Assembly (NCBI RefSeq): GCF_009914755.1
Contig: NC_060934.1
Source of the DNA: the human T2T-CHM13v2.0 reference genome, Homo sapiens
DNA length: 64,000 nt
Direction: 5' to 3' (one strand)
The position numbers and the translations under genes were made by a program. The notes under the pieces were generated by a model. It was not told the origin of the DNA. It saw nothing but the letters and a program-made list of their open reading frames with translations, and did not search any database. Shown here piece by piece: positions 51,764-56,009 of the stretch (its first letter is position 1; each line of letters starts with the position of its first letter).

Positions 51764-53102
51764 TGAAGCAAATCTTCTTCCTCAACTGCCCAAATCAAAG
51801 CCCCCAAATTATGTCAGGACAGCCCAGATTGTAGTAGGAAGACAGAGGTCATTGGAAGGGAGCTTTTTCTCCTGGGGGGAGAAAAAAAAGAAGATAATTC
51901 TGTATCTGATACCACAGAGACTTTGTTTTTGTGTTTATTGTCTAATGGAAGAAAAGAAAGAATGTTAGGACATTAGAAAAGAAAGACACAGAGCTATACA
52001 AGAAGGACAATGTGGTCAAAACGCACTCCTTAGCTCTACAAAGAACATTGTCAGTGTGGACCTAATAAGGTAGCCTGTTTATTGATTTGACCAAAAATAG
52101 AAATAGAGCTACATTGGGAGAATGAAGAGAGGGGAGGGTGATGTAAGAGGGCTAAATCATGATCTATAGGAGGTAAAGCAGCAATGTCCGAATTTAGTAA
52201 ACTACAACTATGAGTGTACGCTTGGGGAGAGATAGGGTATGGTCAGAGGTGGCACAAAGCAGTGCTTTATCATTATCTTCATCATGTATCCTCTTAGAAC
52301 TCTTAGCCATGTTTGTGTATAACTTTTACTAAAAATTTATACATCTATAAAGAAAAACTGCCCCAACCATCTGTAAAATGAAAATGTGCCTTCTGGGATG
52401 GCTGCTGTAGGAAGCAGATACCCTGGGGCTTGCAAGGGGGTTGGAGGAGAGGGGCCTCATGCACTGCCCTACCATCCCTGTGCTGCCTTGGAGGACCAGC
52501 AGCAGCCAGGGCCCAGGTGACCTGGTAGAGACCAGCCATCCAGCAGGTCATGCTCTTCCAGCCATCCAGCAGGGAAGAGCTCCTGATGCTGAGGACCCCC
52601 AGAGAGGATCCCTCCTGAACCATGGGTCAGAACCTTCTCTCTACTTCCACACATGAGAGGCAGCTGGCCCTGACTGGGGAAGACCAGGTCAACTCTCCAG
52701 TTTCACACAGCTCTGTGTATGGCTTTTTCCATTTAAAATTATCTTGTGGGCATTTTTATGCAATATGTATCTTTTGGAATTTGGTGCAAATGCTATCTGG
52801 TCTCATTGTGTGGCTATACCATGTTAACGGCATATCTAAAACACAACACTGTGCTGGCTAAGAGTACAGGTGCATCAATCCTATTTTCTCAACTAGAACC
52901 CTGACTCTGTCACTTTCCAGCTGTGTGACATGCGGGGACACACAGCTTCAGCTTCTATCTCTGTAAAATAAGGTAATAAGAGTACCTAATTCACAGGGCA
53001 CTTGTGAGATTTAAATAAATAAATACATGCAAAGTGCTCAGAGCAAGACCCACTGCTTAATAAACACATAACACATTGTAGCTATTACTATTTTTTAGCA
53101 AT

Positions 53103-53601
<499 letters not shown>

Positions 53602-54153
53602 GCCATCCTCATTTTAAATATAGGATTTCTTTTTCCTAAAGCACACTTTAATAAACCTCCTTATACAACTTAATCACACACAAAAATTCATATTCGTTAA
53701 AGAAAAAAATAGACCATGCACATGAGCAAAAAAAGAAAACAAAAGCTACTTGGAATATTACCCTTTTCCCCCAAAGATAACCGTAATATATTTGGTGTAT
53801 ATATTTCAAATCTCTTTCCTTTGCGTGTGTGTGTATACACATATGTATACATATACATACACACACATATTTACACATATACACACAATATATTTGTACA
53901 CTATATACACACATAACTCCTTAGAAAAATTCGTTTTGTGATACTGTTTTATAGTTTTCTTTTTACCAGTTAAGAATAGATCATTGGAGTTATGTGTGTA
54001 TATAGTGTATATTTTGTGTATATGCGTATATATGTGTGTGTATATATATATGTATACATGTATGTATACACACACACAAAGGAAAGATATATATATGTAT
54101 ATATGTATACATATGTATATATACACATATATACATATATACACATACATATA

Positions 54154-54189
<36 letters not shown>

Positions 54190-54255
54190 AAAGAGATTTG
54201 AAATATATACACCAAATATATTGTGGTTATCTTTGGGGGAAAAGGGTAATATTCC

Positions 54256-54422
54256 AATTAGCCGGGCGTGGTGGCAGGCACCCGTAGTCCCAGCTACTTG
54301 GGAGGTTGAGGCAGGAGAATGGCGTGAACCTGGGAAGCGGAGCTTGCAGTGAGCCTAGATCGTGCCACTGCACTCCAGCCTGGGTGACAGAGCGTGACTT
54401 CATCTCAAAAAAAAAAAAAAAA
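54256..54422 (+). mobile_element. 5'-truncated AluY (right arm and poly-A)
   Basis: AluY-diagnostic gagaatggcgtgaacc and gcggagcttgcagtgag. Confidence 0.88.
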
Positions 54423-56009
54423 GAGTAGATCATTTATAGTTTTCTTTTTCCATTTAAGAAAAAAGTCAACAATAATTTTTAATGGCTGCCTAGTATTCCT
54501 TTTCATGTTTGTATTACTCTTTGTTAGTACCCATTGTCCATCACAAACAGCATTTTATTATTCCAAGTTTTGTGTGTGTGCTGAGATAAAAAGCTCACAC
54601 AGTCTACTCAGGTCCAAAGAGTATAGCTTTTAATTTTCTCTGCAATGATCATAAGATAGTCTCCATTGTGTGTAATAATGAGGAAAACTTAGATGTGCCA
54701 TTTAAAAGTTTAGCAATCTCTTCTGGTTTATGTCTCTGATTATTCTGTCAATATTCAGTCTCCTACTTCTGAAATCAGCGTCTGGGCTGATGGGGAGTAC
54801 AGCGTGTCTTCAGCAGCCTCCCCAGCTGTGTGCCCTGTCACATCTGGCCATGGAGTGGAGCAGGCACCTTGGCCTCATGGGAACCTCCCTGTGCAAACTC
54901 CTGCAAGCCCTCCATGCCTAGACCATTTTGTCATCAGCCTCCTGGCCAGTCTGTCTAGGCTGGTGCTTTCAGATTTCAGCATGCATGCAAATCACCTGGA
55001 AAGTTTGTGAAAACAGACTCCTAGGCACCACATCCAGAGATTCTGATCAGTAGGTCTGGGGTGGGATGGAGAGTCTGCACTTCTAACAAGCTCCCAGGTG
55101 AGGCAGGTCCCAAAGCCACACTTTGGAAATGAGTACCCTCATCTACATCTTCACCACAGCCTTGCTGTGCAGTCACTTTGCTCTCACCAAGGTAGTACCT
55201 TGGCTGGTCTCTGGCTCTCAACCGAGCTGCCTCCCCACACATTACCAAGAGCTTAAGAGATATCCTAGATTCCTGGTTTTCCATAAGGGAAATTGGAGTG
55301 GGGAAGGGGGAGTGGTTCCTACAGCCCTCCCTCTGAGGACATCCCATGCTGCCTCCTCTCCCCCAGGTTGATATGAGGGCTCCTTTTCAGAGGCGCCTTT
55401 CCAAAGCACCAACTGGGAAGAGAAACACAAGCTCCCCCCACCCACCCCCCTTACTTCAGGCTTTTGTTCCAAGGTAATTTTTATCTGCCATCTTCCTCCA
55501 TTTTAACATTAAACCTGAATGTGTAGAGAGATAGACGCAGGGTCACTGTTATCTGACATCCTATGCATCTCTTTCTTACTCCTCACTTTCCTCCCAGAAC
55601 CAGAGAGCCTTTCTTTTGTTTCCCTCTTGTCTGGAAGTCACTCCTTCATTGTTAATGCCTTGTTTTGTTGTGTGTGTGTGTGTGGCGGCGGGCGGGGGGG
55701 GCGGGGGGTAGACATTTGGTCACCTTCCCTGGGGCCATAATGGCAGAGTGGCTTCTGGGGAATATAATTTATAGAATATTAAAAATATATAGTTTAATGT
55801 TTTCAAAATGTCTCTGGTACACATAGTAATTGTGTTTTATTTTTCGTCATTACATTTGCCAGAATTTGTCTATTTGTTTATGCTGTTTTATTTGATTTTA
55901 CTTATTAATTTTACTTTTTTCCTATTTTCAGACTCAATAATTATGTTACCTTTATTACATAGGGTAATTATATGTAATACCTTATTATATTTATTATATT
56001 TTTTCTTCT

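What the first reader, a model, noticed from the sequence alone, without database searches (positions are those of the whole stretch)
53750..54434. Truncated AluY carrying an inverted copy of its own upstream flank inside the TSDs
Seen: 53986-54257 is the reverse complement of 53750-53920, with extra TA/CA expansion. The near-identical ORFs [11 protein letters not shown]... on opposite strands show this. It is fused directly to a 5'-truncated AluY (54256-54422). The whole unit is bounded by a 14-bp TSD, aagaatagatcatt (53972-53985) / aagagtagatcatt (54421-54434). The junction has imperfect microhomology: the source reads ccaagtagc and the junction reads ccaattagc. Inference: during target-primed reverse transcription the Alu cDNA switched template onto nearby genomic DNA before integration finished. 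The result is a ~170-bp-arm, AT-rich inverted repeat with a 65-bp spacer that could extrude as a cruciform.
Basis: partly seen in the sequence, partly recalled or inferred. Interest (0 to 1): 0.7.

Follow-up and report, generated by a model that had tools for sequence, protein, structure and literature searches.

The report
Alu insertion with foldback flank copy
An old, shortened Alu element carries a reversed copy of the DNA just upstream of where it landed, likely made when its copying strand slipped onto neighbouring DNA during insertion; this rare accident is already described for L1 insertions and likely has no function here.

Summary
The structure is real. Between the two copies of a 14-bp target-site duplication (13/14) lie a reverse-complement copy of 53750-53920 and a right-arm-only AluY with an A16 tail. 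The copy starts on the base after the left TSD and ends where the Alu begins. Corrections: the copy is two overlapping pieces, not one arm with microsatellite growth; a second direct repeat (27/29) starts at the end of the right TSD and was missed; a cruciform is unlikely (65-bp spacer, computed cost 79 kcal/mol or more). The host is an ancient dispersed repeat whose motif spacing returns to the family range when 53986-54434 is removed, so the block is an insertion. None of 164 other Alus checked has such a copy. [quoted passage not shown] One event is about 90% likely. Microhomology at the Alu junction and none at the TSD junction mildly favour the cDNA-switch direction. I found no Alu-specific report. 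No primate ortholog could be examined. It is a neat, rare fossil of a known kind.

The parts
53728..54513 (-). Ancient dispersed repeat that hosts the insertion (L1 3'-end type, antisense; the name L1M/L1ME is recalled, not from a call)
   Evidence: Profile of 9 paralogs matches 53728-53847 (E 1.7e-7 in the window); profile of 5 paralogs matches 54446-54513 (E 4e-8); downstream motif has about 22,000 genomic matches at up to 1 mismatch
53745..53751 (+). Microhomology site: its reverse complement matches the first 7 bases of the Alu remnant (54256-54262) at 6 of 7
53750..53920 (+). Source segment of the inverted copy (171 bp, 70% A+T, with a TA/CA microsatellite at 53834-53915)
53921..53985 (.). 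65-bp spacer between the arms; no internal structure beyond chance (z +0.44)
53948..53976 (+). Left copy of a 29-bp direct repeat (partner 54433-54460)
   Evidence: 27 of 29
53972..53985 (+). Left target-site duplication; starts at TT|AAGA (bottom strand TCTT/AA), one base off the L1 endonuclease consensus TTTT/AA
   Evidence: consensus and 14 +/- 3 bp mean TSD from PMC3415434
53986..54087 (-). Inverted copy, piece 1 (copies 53920->53813); no microhomology at the TSD junction
   Evidence: 94 of 100 aligned bases
54088..54257 (-). Inverted copy, piece 2 (copies ~53870->53750), with expanded (TA/CA)n including (AC)15 at 54157-54187
   Evidence: 68 of 70 in 54188-54257
54256..54406 (+). AluY-type right arm, 5'-truncated at the end of the A-rich linker
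54407..54422 (+). A16 tail
54421..54434 (+). Right target-site duplication
   Evidence: 13 of 14
54433..54460 (+). Right copy of the 29-bp direct repeat, starting in the last two bases of the right TSD; origin unexplained

Best explanation
This is a right-arm AluY and a reversed copy of the upstream flank lying together inside one 14-bp target-site duplication, likely made in a single L1-driven insertion in which the Alu cDNA likely switched template onto nearby genomic DNA. Inferred steps: (1) L1 endonuclease nicked the bottom strand at 53971/53972 and the A-tail was primed there. (2) Reverse transcription stopped at the A-rich linker, where other Alus are truncated too. (3) The cDNA end paired through the 6-of-7 microhomology with the bottom strand at 53745-53751 and copied rightwards from 53750. 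(4) It slipped back once inside the microsatellite (to 53813) and went on to 53920; this internal repeat could instead be later replication slippage. (5) It joined the top-strand end at 53985 without homology, by template jumping or end joining, and fill-in made the TSD. Shown: the anatomy, junctions, subfamily states and insertion into a continuous older repeat. Inferred: order, strand, and enzyme (ORF2p or a host polymerase). It most likely does nothing now: it is intergenic in the supplied annotation, and would form a hairpin only in long single-stranded DNA.
For: Left TSD ends at 53985 and the copy starts at 53986; the copy ends at 54257 and the Alu starts at 54256; the Alu has no TSD of its own. 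Host motif spacing is 702 nt here, 253 after removing 53986-54434, and 166, 188, 199, 310 in the 4 of 9 paralogs where both motifs were found. Truncation at this linker is a normal TPRT outcome: 8 of 15 other right-arm-only Alus have a TSD of 12 or more within 1 nt of the Alu start. Divergence is compatible: Alu 5 of 121 non-CpG sites; arms 2 of 70 (p 0.26) or 8 of 170 (p 0.35). Homology lies at the Alu junction and none at the TSD junction, the reverse of a fold-back case with 14 bp at the fold and none at the L1 junction. Same structure and mechanism for L1 in Nam et al.. ORF2p copies DNA templates, uses 5-6 nt primers and jumps templates in vitro (PMC10830420).
Against: No primate empty site was seen. 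The age test is weak (wide intervals). Copying the bottom strand needs invasion of duplex DNA, whereas resection of that end would expose the top strand and favour fold-back. The model does not explain the 29-bp repeat after the right TSD; such short-period repeats cover only 0.22% of 277,762 control bases (11 events). Microhomology is imperfect.
Confidence: 0.55

Rival explanations
1. Same single insertion, other strand: the left DNA end was resected, its top-strand 3' end folded back over the 65-nt spacer, copied its own strand leftwards, and the new end annealed to the Alu cDNA through the 7-nt microhomology to start second-strand synthesis.
For: Gives the identical product. Proposed for an inverted duplication next to an L1 insertion (PMC11702581 Fig. 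S9C legend). Uses single-stranded template. In 2 of 5 paralogs (L006, L016) the bases at the matching place are TGG, as at the left junction, so some priming homology may have been ancestral (weak alignment).
Against: No homology between the TSD end and 53921 onward; the published folds had 14 and 6 bp. If TGG were host sequence it should also follow the right TSD, and it does not.
Confidence: 0.25
2. One longer chain of template switches at a DNA break: a strand from the right-hand end copied the 29-bp repeat, then the 14-bp 'TSD', then Alu RNA, and met the fold-back copy. The TSD would be a templated copy, not the product of staggered nicks.
For: The 29-bp repeat starts exactly at the right TSD end (2-nt overlap) and such repeats are rare (0.22% of control bases). 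Host spacing across it is 88 nt against 80, 84 and 67 in three paralogs, so it replaced rather than added sequence. Its divergence (2 of 29) is compatible with the TSD and arms.
Against: The TSD has the usual length and starts at an endonuclease-like site. The last ~15 bases of the right repeat copy align without gaps to the host family, so part of the match may be older. The rarity figure was computed after seeing the repeat.
Confidence: 0.1
3. Two events: a full-length or truncated AluY inserted normally, and a later replication or repair accident placed an inverted duplication between the TSD and the Alu, perhaps removing the left arm.
For: Stand-alone inverted duplications are a common class (277 events, median 284 bp, mostly with 1-15 bp microhomology; PMC12350158). 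The arms are slightly less diverged than the Alu (not significant).
Against: Needs a later breakpoint on the exact base after the TSD. The Alu start coincides with a recurrent TPRT truncation point. The opposite order (duplication first) is excluded because the TSD does not flank the Alu alone.
Confidence: 0.1

Closest known systems
[quoted passage not shown] 2023, PMC10191854; preprint 10.1101/2022.05.18.492429)
   Same: TSD and A-tail kept; inverted copy of upstream flank at the 5' head; 52-220 bp copied (171 bp of source here); cDNA 3' end proposed to continue on the upstream bottom strand; rare (3 + 1 events, 0.3% + 0.1%).
   Different: Here the cargo is an Alu, the event is old and in the reference germ line, and the copy has an internal repeat.
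Inverted duplication and templated genomic insertions next to engineered L1 insertions (PMC11702581, Figs S9-S10 legends)
   Same: Local inverted duplication joined to the reverse-transcribed end.
   Different: Explained there by fold-back of the reciprocal end, with homology at the fold; cultured cells; L1 cargo.
Templated insertions in tumour L1 insertions (Zumalave et al., 10.1101/2024.08.27.596794)
   Same: 22 cases, templates under 250 bp, cDNA proposed to leave the RNA and pair with nearby DNA.
   Different: Templates typically within 15 bp of the site (51 bp from the nick here); orientation not given in the text I could read; L1 cargo.
5'-truncated Alu with 5' extra nucleotides (Kojima 2010, PMC2912911)
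   Same: 19.5% of lineage-specific Alus are truncated and 11.7% of those carry extra 5' bases.
   Different: The passages seen do not describe a long inverted flank copy; 270 bp is far beyond the 3-4 extra bases seen in my controls.

Membership tests
L1-driven (TPRT) Alu insertion | 3' A-tail | tested here: met
   A16 at 54407-54422
L1-driven (TPRT) Alu insertion | TSD of about 14 bp | tested here: met
   13 of 14; mean 14 +/- 3 in PMC3415434. The left copy lies 270 bp from the Alu.
L1-driven (TPRT) Alu insertion | Endonuclease-like site at the TSD start | tested here: met
   Bottom strand TCTT/AA, one base from TTTT/AA
L1-driven (TPRT) Alu insertion | Empty site with one TSD copy in an outgroup | not testable with these tools
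   No primate genomes held; only the indirect paralog-spacing test
AluY | Right-arm diagnostic states of the younger Alu group | tested here: met
   Two states co-segregate in 110 of 115 arms (15 both, 95 neither); this arm has both, and differs at 5 of 121 non-CpG sites from that group's majority against 10 of 123 from the other. That these states define AluY is recalled.
AluY | Left-arm diagnostics and finer subfamily (Y, Yc, Sc-like) | not testable with these tools
   Left arm absent; no Dfam or Repbase library
5' foldback inversion at a retrotransposon insertion (Nam process C) | Inverted duplicate of upstream flank between left TSD and element 5' end | tested here: met
5' foldback inversion at a retrotransposon insertion (Nam process C) | Size of a few tens to about 220 bp | tested here: met
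   171 bp of source; 272 bp as it stands; range
5' foldback inversion at a retrotransposon insertion (Nam process C) | Arises together with the insertion | tested here: inconclusive
   Junction geometry and divergence agree but no ortholog was seen
Cruciform-forming palindrome (PATRR type) | Near-perfect arms with little or no spacer | tested here: not met
   65-bp spacer, ~100-nt bulge; hairpins minus duplex cost 79-275 kcal/mol against 14 for a no-spacer control
Twin-priming 5' inversion | Inverted part comes from the element's own RNA | tested here: not met
   The inverted part is flanking genomic DNA

The most novel reading that the evidence does not exclude
The locus records one growing DNA strand that switched template four or five times: 29-bp repeat, 14-bp pseudo-TSD, Alu RNA, upstream flank, flank again. 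An Alu that looks like a textbook endonuclease insertion would then have been captured midway through break repair, with a 'TSD' made by copying, and Alu 5' foldbacks would be an overlooked source of spaced inverted repeats in primate genomes.
Probability: 0.1. Interest if true: 0.5.

Novelty: new member of a known kind. Interest (0 to 1): 0.2.

Why it matters
It is a clear germ-line example that a rare way of finishing L1 insertions also occurs with Alu cargo, which bears modestly on the unsettled question of how the 5' end of an insertion is joined. One locus cannot settle that. A genome-wide count of such Alus, scoring on which side the microhomology lies, could tell cDNA switching from end fold-back. 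No gene, regulatory element or instability is indicated at this site.

Tried and rejected
Coding role: rejected, the ORFs start at TTG and cross microsatellite. RNA gene: no Rfam match reached its gathering score among 49 weak matches; they follow Alu and TA/CA sequence. Chance inverted pair of two copies of a dispersed repeat: rejected, 97% identity in unique sequence and only two matches in the genome search. The 29-bp repeat as the true TSD: less likely, it is 10 nt from the A-tail and does not start at an endonuclease-like site. Micro template switch as the cause of the two adjacent mismatches at 53783-53784: unlikely, because all 9 paralogs have AC there like the inverted copy, so the source changed later (the pattern favours that state, the pattern allowed both and gave 3 of 3). 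Ancestral sequence across the TSD: paralogs too diverged to decide; a further motif search gave 1 locus that was interrupted and not used. Five apparent positives in the Alu control were Alu sequence matching neighbouring Alus and were dropped. Gilbert et al. 2005 was not held. PMC13526784 passages held nothing on this structure. Earlier scan findings were not available.

Full report
Observation. Reading 52900-55200 and comparing it with itself confirms the main structure. From left to right: source segment 53750-53920; 65-bp spacer ending in the left TSD 53972-53985; inverted copy 53986-54257; Alu right arm 54256-54406; A16 tail; right TSD 54421-54434. The TSD matches 13 of 14; its 12 bases outside the tail match 11 of 12 (chance about 1e-5 at a named place) and that 12-mer occurs only twice in the window at up to 1 mismatch. 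A genome search with 53617-53830 found only the source and this copy (simple repeats are skipped).

The copy is in two overlapping pieces. Piece 1, 53986-54087, copies 53920->53813 (94 of 100 aligned). Piece 2, 54088-54257, copies about 53870->53750, with an expanded TA/CA tract, and matches 68 of 70 in its unique part. The predicted single-strand hairpin is strong (-156 kcal/mol, z -23) but has a bulge of about 100 nt. A second direct repeat, 53948-53976 and 54433-54460 (27 of 29), starts in the last two bases of the right TSD. The ORFs start at TTG and are not evidence of a gene. No Rfam family reached its gathering score.

The Alu. Among 115 other Alu right arms in 278,862 bases, two sequence states co-segregate (15 with both, 95 with neither, 5 mixed). 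This arm has both. It differs from that group's majority at 5 of 121 non-CpG and 8 of 28 CpG sites, against 10 of 123 non-CpG for the other group; the group median is 2.7% non-CpG, so this is an older member. That the states mark AluY is recalled. With a recalled neutral rate near 0.15% per million years, 4.1% (95% range 1.3-9.6%) would mean roughly 25 million years, with a very wide range.

The host. The flanks belong to an ancient dispersed repeat: a profile from 9 paralogs matches 53728-53847, a profile from 5 paralogs matches 54446-54513, and the downstream motif has about 22,000 genomic matches at up to 1 mismatch. I recall it as the antisense 3' end of an old L1M element; no call names it. 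Its two motifs are 702 nt apart here and 253 nt after removing 53986-54434, against 166, 188, 199 and 310 in the 4 of 9 paralogs where both were found. This stands in for an empty site: the whole block is an insertion into older sequence. It does not show that the block came in one step. At 53783-53784 the inverted copy keeps the family state and the source has changed, so both have drifted since the copy was made.

Controls. Two genome-wide patterns for Alus lacking the A-rich linker gave 28 matches, this one included. Of the 27 others, 9 had no right-arm end that my script could find and 3 had a left arm. Of the remaining 15, 8 have a TSD of 12 or more within 1 nt of the Alu start and 2 more have a TSD followed by 4 extra bases; none of the 27 has an inverted flank copy. 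So truncation at this point is an ordinary outcome, and the foldback is not. In a wider test, 165 Alus with at least 400 nt upstream (43 of them 5'-truncated) gave 6 positives: this locus and 5 matches of Alu sequence to neighbouring Alus, which I dropped. That is 0 of 164 others, upper 95% bound 1.8%.

One event or two. The copy begins on the base after the left TSD and ends where the Alu begins, and the Alu has no TSD of its own. Duplication first and Alu second cannot give this. Alu first and duplication later needs a breakpoint on that exact base. Divergence of arms and Alu is compatible (p 0.26 and 0.35), a weak test. I put one event at about 0.9.

Which strand. At the Alu junction the source and the Alu share 6 of 7 bases; at the TSD junction there is no shared base; at the internal junction at most 1-2. 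If the cDNA switched onto the bottom strand at 53745-53751, the priming step has homology and the last join needs none. If the top-strand end folded back, the priming step would have had none. In a published fold-back case the fold had 14 bp of homology and the L1 junction none (PMC11702581, supplement legend of Fig. S9). Against it, resection of the left end would expose the top strand, which suits fold-back, and 2 of 5 paralogs hint at a few bases of ancestral homology. ORF2p copies DNA, uses 5-6 nt primers and jumps templates in vitro (PMC10830420, passages), so it could do every step; Nam et al. suggest host polymerases. The enzyme is not known.

The unexplained repeat. Exact non-simple direct repeats of 17 or more with period 20-80 cover 0.22% of 277,762 control bases (11 events), so finding one at this site, starting at the TSD end, is suspicious, though the figure is after the fact. 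Spacing across it is 88 nt against 80, 84 and 67 in three paralogs, and its last part aligns to the family without gaps. It may be an older slippage that replaced a few bases, or part of the same event. Only an ortholog decides.

Cruciform. Both hairpins minus the duplex cost 79, 151 and 275 kcal/mol for arms of growing length, against 14 for the inner 24-bp arm without spacer (supercoiling relief and junction energy not included). A review reports that inverted Alus with a 52-bp spacer did not stall forks often in eukaryotic cells while a 12-bp spacer did (PMC7999016, passages). Extrusion from duplex DNA is unlikely; a hairpin in long single-stranded DNA is possible.

What is known. Nam et al. 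[quoted passage not shown] PMC11702581 (passages and supplement legends) reports 3 insertions with local inversions and 3 with templated genomic pieces. Zumalave et al. (section 4 read whole; passages) report 22 templated insertions; its supplement is closed and may give their orientation. Kojima (first part and passages; additional files not read, they may list Alu cases) gives 11.7% of truncated Alus with 5' extra bases. PMC3415434, PMC4607524 and PMC12350158 were seen as passages. Six searches aimed at an Alu-borne case listed none by title or abstract, and one search returned 0 papers; the library lacks most subscription papers, so this is not proof of absence.

Verdict. Real, rare, and a new member of a described kind, with Alu cargo and an old germ-line date as the only fresh aspects. 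Best reading: one L1-driven insertion with a cDNA switch onto the upstream flank (0.55); fold-back of the other end (0.25); serial switching that includes the 29-bp repeat (0.1); two events (0.1). Interest 0.2.

Noticed in passing
L061, L068, L071 (Alu 5' junctions near locus position 1500): Three linker-truncated Alus have 3-4 extra bases between TSD and Alu that form a short palindrome with the TSD end, like miniature fold-backs of the top-strand end. Chance level not computed.
   Followed up: no
L054-L058, L066, L070, L072, L073: Right-arm-only Alus cut at the same place at the end of the A-rich linker, with the TSD abutting and 0-2 A of microhomology: a recurrent truncation point.
   Followed up: partly
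window 53279-53616: A full-length antisense Alu with a perfect 14-bp direct repeat at 53279-53292 / 53603-53616, about 660 bp from the AluY arm and inverted to it (70 nt at 81%).
   Followed up: no
window 53105-53273: An older Alu monomer in sense orientation whose tail abuts the antisense Alu.
   Followed up: no
window 53772-53794 and 53874-53896: A 23-nt, 74% direct repeat 102 bp apart inside the source; piece 1 of the inverted copy is also 102 bp long. Probably coincidence.
   Followed up: partly
L062 near position 1500: A right-arm-only Alu with an A-tail but no TSD found within 600 nt upstream; possibly an insertion with target-site deletion.
   Followed up: no
L075 and L077 near position 1500: Alus with a short tandem duplication of the start of the right arm.
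   Followed up: no
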